Positions 1 through 8,933 of a stretch of DNA of 13,814 bases are shown piece by piece. Source of the stretch: a virus (lineage: Duplodnaviria; Heunggongvirae; Uroviricota; Caudoviricetes); the IMG/VR virus record IMGVR_UViG_641736163_000006, one strand, 5' to 3'. Position 1 is the first letter of the stretch. Each line of letters opens with the position of its first letter. The position numbers and the translations under genes were made by a program. A model generated the notes under the pieces. It saw only the letters and a list, made by a program, of their open reading frames with translations. It did no database searches and was not told where the DNA came from.

Positions 1-2913
1 TTAATTTCGTTTCAGATTAGCCAACGCTCGCAAAGGCCGCCTTTCCAGCTCGAATGTATCAATGAATCGCAATGAGGATCTGTCATCGATGAGTCCCAAT
101 GAGTCAATCAGCGCTTTACGCTCAGGTTCTCTCCATTGCCACAGGGGATGTGTAACGACTGCGCGCCAGAGTTCTTTTCCATCCTGAATTTCGGTAAGGA
201 CCGGTAATGAGTGCTCTTTTGACAATTTGATGGTTCCAGGTCGTAACGCCTCGACGTCTTCCGCCAGCTCAAATGCCCTGTCTCGCCACCCGACCATTTC
301 AGGATGAATCCAGTCATTGTCGTTCAAGCCGCAGGCGAATTCAGGTACTACCATTGCCCGTAAGTAGGCTATGCCTAAACGCCAGTCCAGTAAGCCGTGG
401 TACCGGCGGTTGCCATAACGTTGTATGCACTTGTAACAAGCAGTTTGGCATTGTGCGGGATGATCATTACTCAAGAAATCGACCATCGGCCAGTCGCTCT
501 TATTGTTCAGGATTTCATCCAGTAATGTGGCTACCAATGGAGGGTCGCCAGCAACCGATGGTTCGGCAAGCCGTCGGCATAATCCTGAACCGTTGATCAA
601 CGCGTCGGCGATTTGCAATATCGGTTTGCCGAAGTGCAACCGGGGTTCAAGCGTTTCGAACTCGTCTGGCGATACATCCAGATGGAGCGCGGCTTTATGC
701 GTTAATATTTGAGTCGCGCTGATAGCCGCCGCTCGCGTAGGCAAATTCATATATTCGCCGTATCTGGCGACCATATTCAGATTAAGGCGTTCATCGAATT
801 GCATTAACTCCAGGTGAAGCGACTCCGTCTCTTTGCTTGATACAAGCCCAAAGCTTTTCTTCTCTCCGGTGCACCGCCATCTAAAATTATTGCGCAGTCC
901 AGCCCAGTTTGAATCAATCGCCTGACTTCCTTTAATCGGCGATCGGTAGGTAGCTAAAGGAATCGGCACCTTTTGATCGCTCGCCAAATCAACGGTAAAG
1001 CGCTCTCCTTCTTTCTCCCCATTAATGGGCCCATCGTTAAGACGCAAAATAGTAACGCCGCCGCGCCGTACGATAAAAGAACCGCAACTTTCTGAGGCTC
1101 CTGTATGCAATACGGTCGCCGTAGTTTTTAACGACATACGGGTAAAGCTGTCCATCTCGTCCTTTGGCTCAAAATCTGTGCGGAAAGCGGCAGGCGTGAT
1201 ATAGAGTTCGAATTCGTCCGGGCTGATCGGCGTATCGCAATCCTTGCAGTTAATGTCACTATCAGGTTGACTTTGCTCCAGCTTTGCCGAACCGCATGCC
1301 GGACAAATCGCGACATAGTGACTCGATTCCAGCCATGAACATACCGTCGAGAGATCTGATACACGGTTGTCCTGGACCTGGGGTTCCCGATAATTGCCGG
1401 TGAAGCCGATCACCTCATGCTTTTTCTTATCCTTGATCAATACCGAACCAGGAGCATACTCAAAAACCGCAAGGTCAAGATCGCGATCCATCGTTGACCA
1501 TTCGTATTCGGTTTGGTCATTCGCACCTTTTGTTTTGCGTAATCCCAGATAAAGGTTGCGTACCCGAGTCGGCATTCCATACATCGGCAATAGCCCTCGC
1601 TCAGCCAGAAAACAAGCAAGCCCTGTATTATCGTCAGGAGCGGAAGTTCCCAATCCCGCGATTTCTTCGATTATTTTTTCAGCGTTGATTGCGGAATAAA
1701 GGCGTTGGCGTTGACCGGGGGCGAACGTTGCGGCTTCGATAAAACGCTCACGTATATTCTGAGTCGCCTCCAGCGCGCTGTACAATAGTTTGGCCCAGTC
1801 AGCTTTATCATCATGATAGTAATCATGCGTTGAAACATATTCGCCATGAATATCAGGCGGTACGAGTTTATCGCCAGGGAATGTTATTTTGTTCTTACGG
1901 CATTCTTCACGCAGAAGATTAAATGCGCTTCTGAGCCAAATTTTCCGCAGAAGTCTTTTGGGTATATCATCATGATCGACCGCCAGGAAGGGCGGCGGCG
2001 GCGGATCGCCGGTGATCGCGTGAGGGTGTGCGAAATAGTAAGCATCATGAGTACGCCCGCGACAAAACGTGATAACGAAAGAAAATGCCTGGCCGCGTCG
2101 TCCGGCGCGACCGACGCGCTGCTGGTAATTAAATCGCTGGGGCGGCATGTTGGCCTGATAAACTGACTGAAGCGAACCGATATCAATACCGACTTCCATC
2201 GTTGTGGTAACGGCAAGCATATCGATTTCCGCATCCAGTTTTTCAAGTTCGCTCATCTTATCGACGAAAATCCCCTTGAATTTACGCAACCGCTCGGAAA
2301 AATCATCCGTTTGCCCGGTCAATTCTTCGACGTTCAACCGGAAACGTTTAACACCATCTCGTTCCCCGCGCACGATGCGTTTGCCAAGAAAATTGTCTTC
2401 CCATAGCTTTTCAACGACGCCGCTGGGTTCAATATTGAGCGGATTTACGCAACGGGTACAATGCTTAAACCCTAAATGTAAGTGAATTCGTCCGCAGTTG
2501 CTGCATTGCCAGTAATGATCGCCAGGTTTAGCGACCTTAAGAAACAATTTGCCGATACTAATTAATCCCGCCGTATGTTTCAGATCAGCAAACTGCTTTA
2601 AGATACTCGTCAGACCTTCCTGATAGAGGTTATCGCCGAATAAAACTCTGGCGACGCGCTTAACTTTCTCTTTGTCGACATTCGCTCCGACATGCCAGTC
2701 CCGGGTGCGGCTGGCGTCGAAATATTTATTTTCCTTAACGCGATAGACGCCGGAAAACACCCTCAGCCACGCATCGAGTTGCGGCATATCATCTTTACCA
2801 GCGATGCACGGATACGCCAGTCCAGTTTCTTCCAGCGCGAAAAAGATATTGGCGAAAATTACGTCGTCTATCAGTTCAAATTGATCATCGAATATTTTCG
2901 TTTTTATCTTCAT
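1..2913 (-). CDS. 5'-truncated SF2 helicase: C-terminal RecA-like domain plus long Zn-ribbon / DUF1998(MrfA)-like tail; defense-associated helicase remnant (DruE/MrfA-like, family not verified)
   Basis: 970-aa ORF with stop at 1-3. Helicase motif V (TTTMEVGIDIG) and motif VI (QRVGRAGRRGQ) lie about 235-275 aa from the Met. CxxC...CxxC clusters occur at WQCSNCGRIHLHLGFKHCTRC and CPACG...CKDC, and the tail has CQTACYKC...LDWRLG. No Walker A (GxxxxGK[ST]) or DExH motif anywhere, so the ATPase RecA1 domain is missing. The minus-strand frame stays open from 2913 up to 3099 across the IS1 junction, and there is no SD before the ATG at 2913. Confidence 0.6.
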   Translation of the reverse strand: MKIKTKIFDDQFELIDDVIFANIFFALEETGLAYPCIAGKDDMPQLDAWLRVFSGVYRVKENKYFDASRTRDWHVGANVDKEKVKRVARVLFGDNLYQEGLTSILKQFADLKHTAGLISIGKLFLKVAKPGDHYWQCSNCGRIHLHLGFKHCTRCVNPLNIEPSGVVEKLWEDNFLGKRIVRGERDGVKRFRLNVEELTGQTDDFSERLRKFKGIFVDKMSELEKLDAEIDMLAVTTTMEVGIDIGSLQSVYQANMPPQRFNYQQRVGRAGRRGQAFSFVITFCRGRTHDAYYFAHPHAITGDPPPPPFLAVDHDDIPKRLLRKIWLRSAFNLLREECRKNKITFPGDKLVPPDIHGEYVSTHDYYHDDKADWAKLLYSALEATQNIRERFIEAATFAPGQRQRLYSAINAEKIIEEIAGLGTSAPDDNTGLACFLAERGLLPMYGMPTRVRNLYLGLRKTKGANDQTEYEWSTMDRDLDLAVFEYAPGSVLIKDKKKHEVIGFTGNYREPQVQDNRVSDLSTVCSWLESSHYVAICPACGSAKLEQSQPDSDINCKDCDTPISPDEFELYITPAAFRTDFEPKDEMDSFTRMSLKTTATVLHTGASESCGSFIVRRGGVTILRLNDGPINGEKEGERFTVDLASDQKVPIPLATYRSPIKGSQAIDSNWAGLRNNFRWRCTGEKKSFGLVSSKETESLHLELMQFDERLNLNMVARYGEYMNLPTRAAAISATQILTHKAALHLDVSPDEFETLEPRLHFGKPILQIADALINGSGLCRRLAEPSVAGDPPLVATLLDEILNNKSDWPMVDFLSNDHPAQCQTACYKCIQRYGNRRYHGLLDWRLGIAYLRAMVVPEFACGLNDNDWIHPEMVGWRDRAFELAEDVEALRPGTIKLSKEHSLPVLTEIQDGKELWRAVVTHPLWQWREPERKALIDSLGLIDDRSSLRFIDTFELERRPLRALANLKRN

Positions 2914-3066
2914 TTTTTCAGAAGAAGGAAGTCTTTCACTGTATTTAATGATTTCATCTTCTTTAATGAAATTAGCATACCAAACAGTACTATCATCTTC
3001 TTCTGAATTAGGGTGATGCTGCCAACTTACTGATTTAGTGTATGATGGTGTTTTTGAGGTGCTCCA

Positions 3067-3342
3067 GTGGCTTCTGTTTCTATTAGCTGTCCCTCCTGTT
3101 CAGCTACTGACGGGGTGGTGCGTAACGGCAAAAGCACCGCCGGACATCAGCGCTATCTCTGCTCTCACTGCCGTAAAACATGGCAACTGCAGTTCACTTA
3201 CACCGCTTCTCAACCCGGTACGCACCAGAAAATCATTGATATGGCCATGAATGGCGTTGGATGCCGGGCAACTGCCCGCATTATGGGCGTTGGCCTCAAC
3301 ACGATTTTACGTCACTTAAAAAACTCAGGCCGCAGTCGGTAA
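3067..3342 (+). CDS. insA: IS1 InsA (transposition inhibitor / N-terminal part of InsAB' transposase)
   Basis: 91-aa product [22 protein letters not shown]...LKNSGRSR recognised as IS1 InsA; GTG start. Confidence 0.9.
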
Positions 3343-3764
3343 CCTCGCGCATACAGCCGGGCAGTGACGTCATCGTCTGCGCGGAAATGGACGAACAGTG
3401 GGGCTATGTCGGGGCTAAATCGCGCCAGCGCTGGCTGTTTTACGCGTATGACAGTCTCCGGAAGACGGTTGTTGCGCACGTATTCGGTGAACGCACTATG
3501 GCGACGCTGGGGCATCTTATGAGCCTGCTGTCACCCTTTGACGTGGTGATATGGATGACGGATGGCTGGCCGCTGTATGAATCCCGCCTGAAGGGAAAGC
3601 TGCACGTAATCAGCAAGCGATATACGCAGCGAATTGAGCGGCATAACCTGAATCTGAGGCAGCACCTGGCACGGCTGGGACGGAAGTCGCTGTCGTTCTC
3701 AAAATCGGTGGAGCTGCATGACAAAGTCATCGGGCATTATCTGAACATAAAACACTATCAATAA
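3261..3764 (+). CDS. insB: IS1 InsB reading frame (expressed as InsAB' fusion by -1 frameshift)
   Basis: 167-aa frame ending ...HYLNIKHYQ, overlapping the insA 3' end in the -1 frame, as in IS1. Confidence 0.9.
3318..3324 (+). promoter_or_regulatory. A6C slippery heptamer for programmed -1 ribosomal frameshift (insA to insB)
   Basis: AAAAAAC lies within the insA/insB overlap (sequence TTAAAAAACTC), the established IS1 frameshift site. Confidence 0.7.
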
Positions 3765-3779
3765 GTTGGAGTCATTACC

Positions 3780-5016
3780 TAAGGAGTTGATTGGCAAATT
3801 TCGTTTATTGCCGAAAAAATTAACCACAAAGGAAAAAGATGAATCCAAAAATGGACACGTTCATTTTTCTAACCCTAAACGAGCAGCCGACCATTTATTT
3901 AAGAATTTTGATCTGATACCAGAGTTTCGTATTATTGGCGACTTCCCGGTTGATAGTCACATTATCTCTGCGCTATGGATTAACATGGTCGGGCATAAAT
4001 TTGATGCCAGCTTAGATAACTGTTGCTATGGCGCGCGGCTAAAACGTATTCGTAATGATGAATTGTTTAGCAATGAGCAGGATAATCCATTCCATATCAG
4101 TGCTGTGGGTTCTTTTAGCTCCTACTTCCAGCCCTACCAAAAATGGCGTGGTGATGGCTTAAAAGCTATACGTGACGAACTGGAAAAAGATCACGATATT
4201 ATCGCCGCTTCACTGGATTTAAAAAGTTACTATCATTTTATTGATCCACTGGCTATAACTTCTGACGATCTCTGTGACGCGCTAAACGTAAAACTGACTG
4301 AGGATGAAAAAGCGTTTACTGAACAGTTAGCAATATTCTTAAAGCACTGGTCTGACGGCGCAGCAACGTTTGGAAAGAAAATAGCGTACAAAACACCAGT
4401 TATTAATGGTGGTCTGGTCATTGGATTGACGGCCAGTCGGATCATATCTAATATACTGCTACACCAGTGGGATAAATTAGTCATTGAGAAACTATCGCCG
4501 ATCCACTACGGTCGTTATGTCGATGATATGTTCCTCGTGATACGCGATACAGGTAAAATTACTAATAATCACGAATTTATGTTATTGCTGCAAGAGCGGC
4601 TTGGCAACGATTGCATTAGCCAGAAAAACGGGCAAGAACAGATATGGCAAATACAGCAGGGTGAGCAGTTTCAGGGTAAGACTACCATCCAGTTACAATC
4701 CGATAAGCAAAAACTTTTCGTGCTTCAGGGGCGGGCGGGAATAGACCTGCTCGACAGTATCGAAAAGGAGATCTACGAGCTTTCTAGTGAACACCGCTTG
4801 ATGCCTTCACCGGATCAACTGGAACACTCCACCGCGGCTAAAGTCCTTTCCGCTGCCGGTAGCGTGGGTGAAAATGCCGATACTCTGCGCCGTGCGGATG
4901 GATTAACCATCCGTCGTTTGGGCTGGTCACTGCAATTACGCTACGTTGAAACACTGGCGCGAGATCTGCCTCCAGGTGAATGGAAAGAACAGCGGGAAGA
5001 GTTTTATCAGTTTGCC
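3780..5016 (+). pseudogene. UG/Abi-type reverse transcriptase (DRT1-like), RT-domain fragment; 5' end removed at the IS1-A junction, 3' end interrupted by IS1-B
   Basis: RT motif A (IIAASLDLKSYYHFID), motif B-like (INGGLVIGLTASRIISNILL) and motif C (HYGRYVDDMFLV; YVDD at 4516-4527). The ORF-track start at 3766 is a TTG inside the IS1 end; the first native base is 3780 and no plausible native start follows. Confidence 0.75.
5008..5016 (+). repeat. Target-site duplication (left copy) of IS1 copy B: CAGTTTGCC
   Basis: Identical 9-mer directly flanks both ends of IS1-B (5008-5016 and 5785-5793). Confidence 0.85.
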
Positions 5017-5071
5017 GGTGATGCTGCCAACTTACTGATTTAGTGTATGATGGTGTTTTTGAGGTGCTCCA

Positions 5072-5347
5072 GTGGCTTCTGTTTCTATTAGCTGTCCCTC
5101 CTGTTCAGCTACTGACGGGGTGGTGCGTAACGGCAAAAGCACCGCCGGACATCAGCGCTATCTCTGCTCTCACTGCCGTAAAACATGGCAACTGCAGTTC
5201 ACTTACACCGCTTCTCAACCCGGTACGCACCAGAAAATCATTGATATGGCCATGAATGGCGTTGGATGCCGGGCAACTGCCCGCATTATGGGCGTTGGCC
5301 TCAACACGATTTTACGTCACTTAAAAAACTCAGGCCGCAGTCGGTAA
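5072..5347 (+). CDS. insA: IS1 InsA (copy B)
   Basis: Protein identical to copy A InsA. Confidence 0.9.
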
Positions 5348-5769
5348 CCTCGCGCATACAGCCGGGCAGTGACGTCATCGTCTGCGCGGAAATGGACGAA
5401 CAGTGGGGCTATGTCGGGGCTAAATCGCGCCAGCGCTGGCTGTTTTACGCGTATGACAGTCTCCGGAAGACGGTTGTTGCGCACGTATTCGGTGAACGCA
5501 CTATGGCGACGCTGGGGCATCTTATGAGCCTGCTGTCACCCTTTGACGTGGTGATATGGATGACGGATGGCTGGCCGCTGTATGAATCCCGCCTGAAGGG
5601 AAAGCTGCACGTAATCAGCAAGCGATATACGCAGCGAATTGAGCGGCATAACCTGAATCTGAGGCAGCACCTGGCACGGCTGGGACGGAAGTCGCTGTCG
5701 TTCTCAAAATCGGTGGAGCTGCATGACAAAGTCATCGGGCATTATCTGAACATAAAACACTATCAATAA
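5266..5769 (+). CDS. insB: IS1 InsB reading frame (copy B)
   Basis: Protein identical to copy A InsB. Confidence 0.9.
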
Positions 5770-5784
5770 GTTGGAGTCATTACC

Positions 5785-5793
5785 CAGTTTGCC
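5785..5793 (+). repeat. Target-site duplication (right copy) of IS1 copy B: CAGTTTGCC
   Basis: See the left copy at 5008-5016. Confidence 0.85.
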
Positions 5794-7566
5794 TACAACC
5801 ATATTCTTAGGGCCGATAATCTATTTGCACATTTTAGTTATCTGCCAAGGTTGCTTGGCTTTGCTATCAGTATGAATGAATGGCAGCACGCGGAAAAAAT
5901 TGTACTTAAAGCTTACGAATCCATCAATCTGCTGGCCTCGGTGATTACCTCAGGCAAGGAAGTGACTATAAATGGTTGCAAAACTCGAGCAGTAAATGAT
6001 CTTTGGCGTTGTATAAAAGGCACCTTAAGCTGGCTATTTGTTGATGCAGCAACACGATATTACAATCCTGATAAATTATTTCTTGATAAACATTCCAAGA
6101 AAGAAGAGTGTCTTGCGGATACATTTTTTAATCATATTTCACAAAGCCTGACAAACCTAAAGGATTTACTGGATCTTCGTTTTGATTCAGCAGACTTTTA
6201 TTTAAAAGTGCCATTGGTAGCTCGGGCTGACTTAGCAAAAGAACCTTATAAACAGATCGTAAAGAGTCAGTCCGCAGAAAAACTTGTTAATCAGCGTGAT
6301 AGTAAAAAAGAAGCTAAAATACTGAAATTAATGAGCACTTCATCGCTTATTGATATTGATGTTATTAAGCTATTTTTGAAATCAACCAAGAATACCCGAC
6401 TGGAAAAAGTGGCTAAAGGAAATCGTAAGAATGAGAGTTACTTACCTTACATTTTCCCTACACGTCCTTTAACACCCGCTGAAATATCTGAACTGGCCCC
6501 CGAATGTGTTGGATTACCCTCCAGATACGACAAAAACTCAGATGGAAGGCCGTCCACTATTTGGGCCAAATATACGCAAGCATTACGTGGAGTATGGATC
6601 AAACCGACATTGCTGGCATCGGAGCAAGACTCAGACGAAGCGACAAAAACAGTTCGGCCTAAGAAATTCATTCATATTGGTACAGACAGGAAACATAAAA
6701 TTGTCGTTGCGCTAACCAGCATCAAAACCGATGAGGACGACTGGGCTAAAATGGCCTGTAACAAATCTAACCTGTCCCGTTCAAGGTATCAGCGGATTTC
6801 TGAACTGGTTAATGCAACATTGAAACTGTCGCCTAAACCCGATTATGTTTTATTCCCTGAGCTTTCAATTCCGTTACGTTGGGTTAACAGTATTGCCGAT
6901 CGTTTGAGTTCGGCGGGTATCAGTCTGATTGCGGGGACGGAATACCGCCACTTTGACGATAATCAACTGAAGAGTGAAGCAGTGCTTGTCCTGTCAGATA
7001 ACCGACTCGGCTATCCGGCGAGTGTCAAAATATGGCAACCCAAGCTGGAACCCGCTGTAGGTGAAGATGAGGCATTGTTTTCAACGTTTGGTAAGTCCTG
7101 GGCATTTTCAACGCTTAATCCGAAACATCGTAAACCTGTATATATTCATCACGGCGTCAATTTTGGCGTTATGATTTGCTCTGAACTCCAGAACAGCAAA
7201 GCAAGGATCCGGTTTCAGGGCGCGGTCGACGCATTGATGGTATTGAGCTGGAATAAAGATCTGGATACGTTTGCATCGTTGATTGAATCAGCAGCGCTGG
7301 ATGTTCATGCCTATACCATCTTGGTGAATAACCGAAAATATGGCGACAGCCGGGTACGTTCTCCGGCAAAAGAATCCTTTATGCGCGATATTGCCCGCGT
7401 GAAGGGCGGTGATAATGACTTTGTGGTTGCTGCAACGCTGGATATCGATGCGTTAAGGGCATTCCAGAGCAGGGCAAAACGCTGGTCTAAAGATGGCGAT
7501 AAATTCAAGCCATTGCCTGAAGGATTCCAGTTGGCAAAGAATCGTAAAAAACTACCGCCAAAATAA
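5785..7566 (+). pseudogene. 3' portion of the same RT gene: helical linker plus C-terminal nitrilase-like (C-N hydrolase) domain
   Basis: Frame continues from the 3780-5016 fragment once IS1-B and one duplication copy (777 bp, a multiple of 3) are removed. Nitrilase-like triad: E in YVLFPELSIP (6859-6861), K in SVKIWQPKLEP, C in GVNFGVMICSELQ (7177-7179). Stop at 7564-7566. Confidence 0.65.
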
Positions 7567-7692
7567 GAAACTGATTTCGTTATTATAGATCAGGGTATTT
7601 TTGCGTGAGAGGCCGGAAAACAGGATGTCGCCCCTGTGTAAGTTCACAGAGATATTGCAATTGCCTCCGGATAAGTAAGGGGAGATTGCACT

Positions 7693-8739
7693 ATGCAAAT
7701 GCAGCATCTGATGGTTGGCTATCCTAAGTACTACCAAACGGCCGATTATGCGTTGAGGCTTTCAGTGATGGCTGATATAGCAACAATGAGAATGAAGGCT
7801 CTGCACTTCTGGGATAAACACGGTATTTCTGCAGCTTCTGAAGCCTTTGGCGTGTCCTGCCGCACGCTTTACTGGTGGCGTCAGTTACTGAACAAGGAAG
7901 GACCTGAGGGGCTAATCCCGCACAGTAAGGCACCTCTGGTGCGACGAAAAAAACACTGGCATCCCGATGTGCTGAAAGAGATTCGACGCCTCAGGACAGA
8001 GCTGCCGAACCTCGGTAAAGAGCAGATTTTTGTTCGCCTGAAGCCCTGGTGCGAACAGCGCTATCTGGCCTGTCCGAGTGTTTCCACCATCGGCAGAATG
8101 ATCGCTGCCGCACATGATAAAATGCGGATGATACCTGTGCGTCTGGGATCGCGGGGGAAGGCACTGCTTGTCAAAAAGCGGTCTGCCAAACCCCGCAGGC
8201 CAAAGCACTCCCGCCCGGTAAAGACAGGTGAGCTCATTGGGATGGACGCCATTGAGCTCAGAATGGGCGAACTGCGTCGCTATGTCATCACCATGATCGA
8301 CGAATGCAGCAATTACGCGCTGGCGCTGGCTGTGCCGTCACTCAACAGTGATATCGTCAATCACTTCTTCAGCCGCGCAGCCCGGTTGTTCCCGGTCGGT
8401 ATCAGCCAGATAATCACAGATAATGGAAAAGAGTTCCTGGGAAACTTCGACAAAACGCTGCAGGAAGCCGCTATCAAACACCTCTGGACCTATCCCTACA
8501 CGCCAAAAATGAACGCTATCTGTGAACGTTTTAACCGGACGTTAAGAGAGCAGTTTATTGAATTTAATGAGATTTTACTCTTTGAAGATCTGGCGCTATT
8601 TAACCAGAAGCTGGCGGAATATCTGGTGCTGTATAACAGCAAAAGACCCCACAAGGCGCTCGCACTAATGACGCCCGTGGAATATATTTTAAAAGAGAAT
8701 AAAAATTGCAATATGTGGTGGACCCATACATCTCCTTGA
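7693..8739 (+). CDS. DDE-type transposase with N-terminal HTH and integrase-core (rve-like) domain; IS481-family-like
   Basis: 348-aa ORF with SD GGGGAG 8 nt upstream. Single frame carrying an HTH (GVSCRTLYWWRQ) and DDE-like signatures (MIDECS ... ITDNGKEF ... ICERFNRTLREQ), an architecture typical of IS481-family transposases. Element ends not identified. Confidence 0.75.
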   Translation: MQMQHLMVGYPKYYQTADYALRLSVMADIATMRMKALHFWDKHGISAASEAFGVSCRTLYWWRQLLNKEGPEGLIPHSKAPLVRRKKHWHPDVLKEIRRLRTELPNLGKEQIFVRLKPWCEQRYLACPSVSTIGRMIAAAHDKMRMIPVRLGSRGKALLVKKRSAKPRRPKHSRPVKTGELIGMDAIELRMGELRRYVITMIDECSNYALALAVPSLNSDIVNHFFSRAARLFPVGISQIITDNGKEFLGNFDKTLQEAAIKHLWTYPYTPKMNAICERFNRTLREQFIEFNEILLFEDLALFNQKLAEYLVLYNSKRPHKALALMTPVEYILKENKNCNMWWTHTSP

Positions 8740-8793
8740 CCTTTTGGTCCGTAAGAGGCTAATCTCTATGTGTCGCATAGATATGGCCTCAGA

Positions 8794-8879
8794 TTAACAT
8801 TAAGCGTCTTGCAGGACGCGTAATGTTAACTGGGGCTTTTCTCTATCTGCCTTTTGGTGTTCATGCCTGAGGCAGATAG
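8794..8879 (+). repeat. Two adjacent strong inverted repeats (hairpins) of unknown function
   Basis: Hairpin 1 at 8794-8829: TTAACATTAAGCGTC / loop TTGCAG / GACGCGTAATGTTAA, a 15-bp stem with one mismatch. Hairpin 2 at 8843-8879: CTATCTGCCT / 17-nt loop / AGGCAGATAG, a 10-bp stem. Confidence 0.5.
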
Positions 8880-8933
8880 CCTCAAGCACCCGCAGCAATT
8901 CTACTTAACTCCCGTCACCTCGCCAATATAAAA

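What the first reader, a model, noticed from the sequence alone, without database searches (positions are those of the whole stretch)
1..3011. Remnant of a large defense-type helicase with multiple zinc ribbons and DUF1998-like C-terminus
Only the C-terminal RecA-like domain (motifs V and VI) is present, followed by about 700 aa containing CxxC...CxxC clusters. This resembles MrfA/YprA and the DUF1998-bearing helicases of DISARM (DrmA/DrmB) and Druantia (DruE). The absent Walker A / DExH domain means the ATPase core is gone. The gene's stop codon is exactly at the window edge, so partners may lie outside the window.
Basis: partly seen in the sequence, partly recalled or inferred. Interest (0 to 1): 0.45.

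Follow-up and report, generated by a model that had tools for sequence, protein, structure and literature searches.

The report
IS1-truncated Druantia II helicase gene remnant
This is the dead 3' half of the big helicase gene (druE) of a known anti-phage system, type II Druantia, left in an Escherichia albertii genome after an IS1 insertion sequence deleted 13.4 kb that held the rest of the system; it is ordinary gene decay.

Summary
Window 1-3011 (minus strand) encodes the last 1002 codons of a 1946-codon type II Druantia helicase gene, druE (PADLOC DruE2, 1259 bits, model positions 940-1925 of 1928). It is 99.93% identical to the intact druE of other Escherichia albertii strains. Homology stops exactly at base 3011, where a 768-bp IS1 begins.

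This IS1 has no target-site duplication. Its other flank is a reverse-transcriptase-nitrilase defence gene that lacks its first 203 nt. In a conspecific strain these two genes are divergent neighbours separated by abiEi/abiEii, a DUF4917 pseudogene and druM-druF-druG. The window strain has therefore lost 13,435 bp, replaced by one IS1.

- No promoter-like site or Shine-Dalgarno sequence precedes the annotated ATG.
- Both nucleotide changes relative to intact alleles are nonsynonymous.
- The Druantia partners are deleted and do not lie beyond the window edge. Only vsr lies there.

Verdict: a pseudogene remnant of a known system, of low interest.

The parts
1..3011 (-). druE' : 3' remnant (gene nt 2831-5841, codons 945-1946 plus 2 nt of codon 944) of a type II Druantia DruE helicase gene; stop TAA at 3..1
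   Evidence: PADLOC DruE2 PDLC00014 1259 bits, positions 940-1925/1928. 99.93% identity to intact E. albertii druE (L085 15841..12831), with homology ending exactly at 3011. PDB 9wae_A E = 0, residues 962-1959.
1..2913 (-). ORF as annotated in public records (970 aa, WP_000695525.1 'helicase-related protein'); ATG at 2913 is an internal Met (M977) of the intact protein
   Evidence: No Shine-Dalgarno-like sequence in the 25 nt before the ATG, and no promoter-like site on the minus strand upstream.
2092..2247 (-). Distal part of the second RecA-like domain: SF2 helicase motifs V (TTTMEVGID) and VI (QRVGRAGR)
   Evidence: Pfam Helicase_C E 2.3e-7, profile positions 58-110/110. These residues are invariant in alignment A1.
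2449..2505 (-). Zn-ribbon-like CxxC...CxxC (C169/C172/C184/C187 of the 1002-aa translation), lying N-terminal of motif V
   Evidence: Invariant Cys columns in A1; weak Pfam Zn_ribbon_15 hit. G1114S, one of the two remnant-specific changes, lies inside the first CxxC.
1237..1305 (-). Second CxxC...CxxC cluster (C569/C572/C588/C591)
   Evidence: Invariant or near-invariant Cys columns; weak NCBIfam ECs_2282_CxxC hit, E 1.3e-4, below cut-off.
424..708 (-). MZB/DUF1998-like Zn-binding domain (includes CQTACYKC)
4..402 (-). C-terminal alpha/beta domain with a restriction-endonuclease-like fold (published prediction: inactivated Vsr-like domain)
3012..3779 (+). IS1 copy 1 (768 bp), the deletion junction; flanks CTGAATTAG / TAAGGAGTT, so no 9-bp target duplication
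   Evidence: Sequence read directly; 100% identical to copy 2.
3780..7566 (+). RT(UG5)-nitrilase defence gene, lacking its first 203 nt and split by IS1 copy 2 (5017-5784, perfect 9-bp duplication CAGTTTGCC). This is the other side of the deletion.
   Evidence: PADLOC RT_UG5-nitrilase 434 and 485 bits. Matches to L090 10204-11440 and 11432-12351. Intact 1069-aa gene in E. coli 042. Duplication read.

Best explanation
Window 1-3011 is a non-functional 3' fragment of druE, the roughly 1946-aa SF2/YprA-family helicase of a type II Druantia anti-phage system (druM-druF-druG-druE, followed by vsr) in Escherichia albertii. In the ancestor, the Druantia cassette and an RT(UG5)-nitrilase gene were divergent neighbours, separated by abiEi/abiEii, a small HTH/156-aa module and a DUF4917 gene. 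An IS1 element then produced a 13,435-bp deletion. This happened either by intramolecular transposition from one of the two sites or by recombination between two direct IS1 copies. The deletion runs from nt 203 of the RT gene to nt 2830 of druE and left a single IS1 without a target duplication. It removed the methyltransferase DruM, DruF, DruG, and DruE's whole first RecA domain (Walker A GSGKT136, DELH362) together with the motif IV-like strand. The remaining frame has lost its own start, promoter and ribosome-binding site, so it cannot hydrolyse ATP or translocate on DNA and has no partners. It is a recent pseudogene whose frame is still open only because little time has passed. Shown here: identity, break point, missing parts, ancestral gene order. 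Inferred: the mechanism of deletion and the lack of expression.
For: - Family: PADLOC DruE2 1259 bits covering only model positions 940-1925 of 1928. PDB 9wae_A (1970 aa) aligns residues 962-1959 to the fragment and 16-1959 to the intact allele.
- Same species, intact allele: P0123/P0122/P0127 are 1945-1946 aa and sit in the same 90% cluster. Window 1-3011 is 99.93% identical to them, and homology ends at 3011.
- Ancestral order: on contig DBGXXK010000005.1 (L090/L093) the order is RT, abiEi, abiEii, HTH_35, 156 aa, DUF4917, druM, druF, druG, druE, vsr. The window matches both outer edges at 99.8% or more.
- IS1 copy 1 has no target duplication, whereas IS1 copy 2 has a perfect one.
- No DruE N-terminal half, DruM, DruF or DruG by tblastn in the window or in 10 kb on either side. 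The DruM/F/G 90% clusters contain no accession from the window strain's assemblies, unlike the DruE and RT clusters.
- 70 of 81 homologous loci have one open frame of 1900 codons or more, and 78 of 81 have the N-terminal half directly upstream.
- No promoter-like site on the minus strand upstream, no Shine-Dalgarno sequence, and an in-frame stop inside IS1.
- The only two differences from intact alleles are nonsynonymous. One is T999I, at a position that is T, N or S in 72 of 72 homologues.
Against: - The 1002-codon frame is still fully open, and public annotation calls it a protein. Expression was not measured.
- The promoter scan is a crude sigma-70 consensus search, and IS1 ends are known (my own knowledge) to be able to create hybrid promoters.
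- Two substitutions are too few for a dN/dS test.
- Absence of druMFG elsewhere in the genome rests on protein-cluster accessions, not on a whole-genome DNA search.
- The reference strain used for the ancestral order is a relative, not the actual ancestor, and shows decay of its own (RT truncated at the 3' end, DUF4917 pseudogene).
Confidence: 0.93

Rival explanations
1. The 970-aa ORF is a complete, standalone protein family (a helicase C-terminal-half / MZB protein that works without its own ATPase domain or with a separately encoded one, as DrmB does with DrmA in DISARM).
For: The protein search returned many hits of 1000-1260 aa, some on long contigs (P0001, P0005, P0006, P0054, P0096). 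In Nitrospira the gene is called as 971 + 1003 aa in two independent samples, split within about 10 residues of the E. albertii break.
Against: - The hit list contained no protein longer than 1749 aa and missed even the 1946-aa conspecific allele, so it is biased towards fragments.
- The unbiased genome scan shows single frames of about 1950 codons in 70 of 81 loci.
- The Massilia (L004) and Enterobacteriaceae B14 (L005) cases are overlapping-frame frameshifts.
- In Nitrospira, sequence resembling the family consensus (GVHPVDETG; compare GxHPxDxxG in the A1 consensus) continues in the downstream frame upstream of its ATG, which I read as a frameshift and not a designed split.
- In the window the frame is open and homologous for 32 codons upstream of the ATG, right up to IS1.
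Confidence: 0.02
2. This is a simple IS1 insertion (or an IS1-flanked inversion) that merely interrupts druE. The 5' half and druMFG survive nearby or elsewhere, and could be restored by IS1 excision or recombination.
For: IS1 copy 2, 1.2 kb away, is a simple insertion with a 9-bp duplication. This region has also undergone an inversion between two inverted IS481-family copies, so rearrangement without loss does occur here.
Against: - IS1 copy 1 has no target duplication.
- Its other flank is the RT gene in exactly the relative orientation expected for a plain deletion of the reference arrangement.
- No druE 5' half or druMFG lies within 10 kb on either side.
- No DruM/F/G proteins from the window strain's assemblies are in the 90% clusters.
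Confidence: 0.04
3. The junction is an assembly artefact: collapsed or mis-joined IS1 repeats have created a chimeric druE'-IS1-RT' linkage.
For: IS1 is a multicopy repeat. In short-read assemblies of other E. albertii strains the druE' fragment and the 1.2-kb inter-IS1 piece form separate small contigs (3.4-3.6 kb and 1.2 kb), so linkage is not shown there.
Against: Two assemblies, a 2008 scaffold (CH991859.1) and a 4.69-Mb contig (JALHKM010000002.1), show the identical arrangement. Several other strains have partial proteins of exactly 1000-1002 aa, meaning their contigs end at the same druE/IS1 boundary. The truncation itself is therefore real whatever lies beyond the IS1.
Confidence: 0.01

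Closest known systems
Type II Druantia DruE (PADLOC DruE2; intact E. albertii allele WP_149477564.1, 1946 aa; solved homologue PDB 9wae, 'Helicase', 1970 aa)
   Same: Sequence is 99.9% identical at the DNA level to the 3' 3011 nt of the conspecific gene. It has the same motifs V/VI, Cys clusters, MZB-like domain and C-terminal endonuclease-like domain, and the same downstream vsr.
   Different: It lacks codons 1-944: Walker A, DExH, the first-RecA-domain insertions, two N-terminal CxxC pairs and the motif IV-like strand. It lacks druM, druF and druG, and its own start and promoter. It carries T999I and G1114S.
MrfA/YprA (Bacillus subtilis DUF1998 helicase, PDB 6znp)
   Different: MrfA is a compact 749-aa DNA-repair helicase. 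DruE is 2.6 times larger, with large insertions and an extra C-terminal domain. Profile-sequence search does not align the MZB regions.
DISARM DrmA/DrmB (PDB 7s9w)
   Different: PADLOC DrmA hits are marginal (E 1e-6, motifs V-VI only). There are no drmC/D/E or DISARM methylase neighbours. In DISARM the partner ATPase DrmA is present, whereas here no ATPase partner exists.
Type III Druantia DruE (PDB 9tu7; DruH-DruE systems characterised in 2025-2026 preprints)
   Same: Shares the helicase core motifs (E 1.3e-13 over motifs V-VI) and the general idea of a giant YprA-like helicase at the centre of the system.
   Different: It is a different subtype: a PLD-type nuclease C-terminus and a druH partner according to Bell et al. 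2025. PADLOC DruE3 models score only 83-162 bits, against 1259 for DruE2.

Membership tests
Type II Druantia DruE | Full-length match to the DruE2 profile (about 1930 positions) | tested here: not met
   Only positions 940-1925 of 1928 are matched (1259 bits). The intact homologue L007 matches 1-1924 (2571 bits). It is a fragment of a member, not a complete member.
Type II Druantia DruE | SF2 ATPase core: Walker A (motif I) and DExH (motif II) in the first RecA-like domain | tested here: not met
   GSGKT136 and DELH362 of the intact allele lie upstream of the break at aa 944/945. There is no tblastn hit to the N-terminal 944 aa in the window or within 10 kb on either side.
Type II Druantia DruE | Helicase motifs V and VI in the second RecA-like domain | tested here: met
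   Pfam Helicase_C above cut-off, aa 255-306; residues invariant across homologues.
Type II Druantia system | Operon partners druM (C5 cytosine methyltransferase), druF and druG upstream of druE | tested here: not met
   Present in conspecific intact loci L085-L088, L092/L093 and in Citrobacter L007, confirmed there by PADLOC DruM2/DruF2/DruG2. Absent from the window and its flanks and from the strain's entries in the protein clusters.
YprA/MrfA-like (DUF1998/MZB) helicases | C-terminal Zn-binding MZB/DUF1998 domain | tested here: met
DISARM (DrmA/DrmB) | DrmA/DrmB profile matches plus drmC and methylase neighbours | tested here: not met
   DrmA matches only at E 1e-6 over about 65 residues. 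No DISARM genes appear among the window ORFs scanned.
IS1 | 768-bp element with terminal inverted repeats (GGTGATGCTGCC... / ...GGAGTCATTACC), insA/insB ORFs, and a 9-bp target duplication on simple insertion | tested here: met
   Two identical 768-bp copies with 91-aa and 167-aa ORFs (DDE_Tnp_IS1, Zn_ribbon_InsA). Copy 2 has the 9-bp duplication; copy 1 does not, as expected at a deletion junction.

The most novel reading that the evidence does not exclude
The ATPase-less C-terminal half of DruE (partial second RecA domain, Zn ribbons, MZB domain, inactive Vsr-like domain) is transcribed from an IS1-derived or read-through promoter. Together with the intact vsr gene just downstream, it acts as a DNA-binding decoy, regulator or dominant-negative factor. 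On this reading it has been kept open by selection, not merely by lack of time. The break falls in a poorly conserved stretch where independent frameshifts also divide the gene in other lineages, so the half may be an autonomously folding unit.
Probability: 0.03. Interest if true: 0.4.

Novelty: already known. Interest (0 to 1): 0.1.

Why it matters
It matters little beyond annotation. Public records call this ORF a 'helicase' or 'helicase-related protein'. It should be flagged as a druE pseudogene, and defence-system finders should not count Druantia (or the neighbouring RT-nitrilase and AbiE) as present in this E. albertii lineage. It is a clean, fully reconstructed example of a single IS1 event that removed AbiE and most of type II Druantia and truncated the RT-nitrilase gene. 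A second IS1 insertion then split what was left of the RT-nitrilase gene. This illustrates how quickly defence islands decay in IS-rich Escherichia genomes.

Tried and rejected
- Megablast of 1-3011 against complete E. coli genomes and against plasmids gave no match. The gene is not an E. coli or plasmid sequence; its source is E. albertii.
- The first protein search suggested many 'half-length' homologues. I rejected this as evidence for a standalone family once the genome scan, the cluster look-up and the frame analyses showed they are contig-end fragments or frameshifts, and that the list omitted everything longer than 1749 aa.
The ancestral gene order was obtained instead through the RT fragment's protein cluster.
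- No publication for PDB 9wae or for a type II Druantia mechanism was found in the library.
- The promoter and terminator scan found nothing above the shuffle expectation.
- I did not try to decide between the two IS1 deletion mechanisms, because the sequence does not discriminate between them.
Full report
**What is in the sequence.**
- On the minus strand of window 1-3011 there is one uninterrupted reading frame.
- The first in-frame start codon is ATG at 2913, giving 970 aa. The frame stays open for 32 more codons up to base 3011 and then runs 30 codons into foreign sequence, to a TGA at 3100-3102.
- Base 3012 is the first base of a 768-bp IS1 (GGTGATGCTGCC...GGAGTCATTACC, 3012-3779). A second, 100% identical copy lies at 5017-5784 in the same orientation.

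**What the frame encodes.**
- The 1002-aa translation matches the PADLOC profile for type II Druantia DruE (DruE2, PDLC00014) with 1259 bits, E = 0. The match covers only profile positions 940-1925 of 1928.
- Other DruE subtypes score lower. DISARM DrmA, BREX BrxH and Dpd helicases match only over about 60 residues around motifs V-VI.
- Pfam finds the distal half of Helicase_C (motifs V and VI, aa 255-306), above its cut-off. It finds MZB/DUF1998 only below its cut-off (E 0.007).
- An AlphaFold model of the last 303 residues, built on 61 homologues, is confident (pLDDT 88, pTM 0.86).
- A solved 1970-aa 'Helicase' (PDB 9wae and six sister entries) aligns residues 962-1959 to the fragment. I found no paper for it.
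The specific answer is DruE of type II Druantia.

**It is a fragment, not a short family.**
- The source is Escherichia albertii (TW07627 scaffold CH991859.1, and NBRC 107761). The exact 970-aa protein is EDS90746.1 / WP_000695525.1.
- Its 90% identity cluster also contains 1945-1946-aa 'DEAD/DEAH box helicases' from other E. albertii strains.
- Window 1-3011 is 99.93% identical (2 mismatches) to the last 3011 nt of that 5841-nt gene. Homology stops exactly at 3011.
- The missing 2830 nt encode Walker A (GSGKT136), DELH362, two CxxC pairs, and a KSIVFSDSRQD strand at 822-832 that looks like helicase motif IV (the motif IV reading is my inference). Even the second RecA domain is therefore probably incomplete.
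- Across one genome per species, 70 of 81 homologous loci carry a single open frame of 1900 codons or more. Five more are cut by contig ends, and 78 of 81 have the N-terminal half directly upstream.

The first protein search seemed to show many proteins of about 1000 aa. However, that list contained nothing longer than 1749 aa and missed even the conspecific full-length allele. The cases I examined are overlapping-frame frameshifts in Massilia L004 and Enterobacteriaceae B14 L005, and a frameshift in Nitrospira L094/L095. In Nitrospira, sequence resembling the family consensus continues in the downstream frame upstream of its called ATG.

**How it was truncated.**
- IS1 copy 2 is flanked by a perfect 9-bp duplication (CAGTTTGCC). 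It is a simple insertion into an RT(UG5)-nitrilase defence gene (PADLOC 434 + 485 bits).
- IS1 copy 1 has unrelated flanks (CTGAATTAG / TAAGGAGTT). druE' lies on one side and the RT gene, lacking its first 203 nt, on the other. The two genes point away from each other.
- The protein cluster of the RT fragment led to E. albertii assembly GCA_048985605.1, where RT and DruE accessions are eight apart on one contig.
- On that contig the order is: RT, then divergently abiEi, abiEii, an HTH_35/156-aa module, a DUF4917 pseudogene, druM, druF, druG, druE, vsr.
- The window matches the two outer edges at 99.8% or more. Converted to contig coordinates, bases 20590-34024 (13,435 bp) are replaced in the window strain by one IS1.
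- This is the signature of an IS1-mediated adjacent deletion, or of recombination between two direct IS1 copies. The sequence cannot tell which.

**Where the partners are.**
- tblastn with DruM, DruF, DruG and the DruE N-terminal half finds nothing in the window or in 10 kb on either side.
- Their protein clusters contain no accession from the window strain's two annotated assemblies, unlike the DruE' and RT' clusters.
- The partners are therefore deleted and not beyond the window ends. The gene just past the stop codon is an intact vsr.

**Is the remnant likely to do anything?**
- It has lost its native start, and no in-frame start lies between the IS1 stop and ATG 2913.
- The 25 nt before that ATG contain no Shine-Dalgarno-like sequence.
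- The consensus scan finds no promoter-like site on the minus strand upstream.
- It has no ATPase core and no system partners.
- Intact alleles from two strains are identical over this region apart from one 3-nt indel. The remnant carries two extra substitutions, both nonsynonymous. T999I falls in the conserved FANTFFALEETG motif, at a position that is T, N or S in 72 of 72 homologues. G1114S falls inside a CxxC, at a variable position.
- This hints at relaxed constraint, but two changes are not statistically meaningful.
- The most economical reading is a young pseudogene. Several other E. albertii assemblies have partial proteins of 1000-1002 aa ending at the same boundary, so the event is shared by a lineage.

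**Comparison with known systems and verdict.**
- The object is the remnant of a member of a known family (type II Druantia DruE, YprA-like helicases), inactivated by a textbook mechanism. It fails the membership tests for a functional member: no ATPase core and no druMFG.
- Nothing here is new in kind.
- The small residual novel reading is an expressed ATPase-less MZB/Vsr-like protein acting with vsr. I put it at about 3%.
- Interest is low. The practical value is correct annotation as a pseudogene, so that Druantia, RT-nitrilase and AbiE are not counted as present in this lineage's defence repertoire.

Noticed in passing
window 3780-5016 and 5785-7566 (+), IS1 at 5017-5784: An RT(UG5)-nitrilase (DRT-class) defence gene is disabled twice. 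Its first 203 nt were lost at the IS1 copy 1 junction, and IS1 copy 2 was inserted with a perfect 9-bp duplication, CAGTTTGCC. The intact 1069-aa gene is present at about 93% identity in 261 of 5426 complete E. coli genomes; in E. coli 042, the one context read, it lies next to abiEi/abiEii near tRNA-Thr/proA.
   Followed up: yes
window 7634-8738 (+ strand transposase 7693-8739); second copy just outside the window (L001 13481-14585): There are two inverted copies (99.8% identical) of a 1.1-kb IS481-family element. The RT gene's natural downstream sequence, as seen in E. coli 042, sits next to the far copy beyond vsr. The whole RT'-IS1-druE'-vsr segment therefore appears to have been inverted between the two copies. 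The flanks of the putative second original insertion show no matching duplication, so the history is more complex than a single inversion.
   Followed up: partly
window 8725-8891 (-): Rfam finds a full-length sok antitoxin RNA (RF01794, 108 bits, E 3e-24), which points to a hok/sok type I toxin-antitoxin locus abutting the IS481-family element.
   Followed up: no
window 9094-10125 (-): A 343-aa SIR2_2-domain protein lies between the hok/sok locus and the prophage replication genes. It has Pfam SIR2_2 at E 1e-5 and weak PADLOC hits to Aga_SIR2, PDC-S21 and SIR2. It sits in low-GC DNA (0.36-0.41) and is possibly a prophage-borne defence gene.
   Followed up: no
window 10494-13814: This is the immunity/replication region of a lambdoid (Rac/mEp460-like) prophage: DUF977, an O-like replication protein (10942-11961) containing four 23-nt iteron-like repeats at 11448-11563, YdaT, Cro-like and cI-like HTH genes. 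It is 88-92% identical to the best-matching lambdoid phages over up to 43% of the query.
   Followed up: partly
L001 13002-13409 (immediately left of window base 1); L004-L084: An intact vsr gene (very-short-patch-repair endonuclease) follows druE by 88 nt and survives the deletion, although its presumed methyltransferase partner druM is gone. A Vsr homologue lies within 10 kb in 53 of 81 type II Druantia loci from different species, so it is a frequent but unlisted companion of the cassette.
   Followed up: partly
L004, L005, L011, L094/L095, L096; Photorhabdus P0001/P0128: druE is found broken independently in several other lineages: by frameshifts in Massilia, Enterobacteriaceae B14 and Nitrospira, with further broken or fragmentary copies in an Atlantibacter MAG, a Melainabacteria MAG and Photorhabdus. 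Several breaks fall near residues 900-980, a poorly conserved stretch. The 'intact' E. albertii strains also show decay nearby: druG is 591 instead of 684 aa in L085, the RT is 794 instead of 1069 aa in L090, and vsr is 98 instead of 135 aa in L085.
   Followed up: partly
(tool behaviour): The word-indexed protein search returned no hit longer than 1749 aa. It missed the 1945-aa representative of the query's own 90% cluster, which made the family look as if it consisted of half-length proteins. This is worth remembering when judging 'standalone short family' claims for giant proteins.
   Followed up: yes
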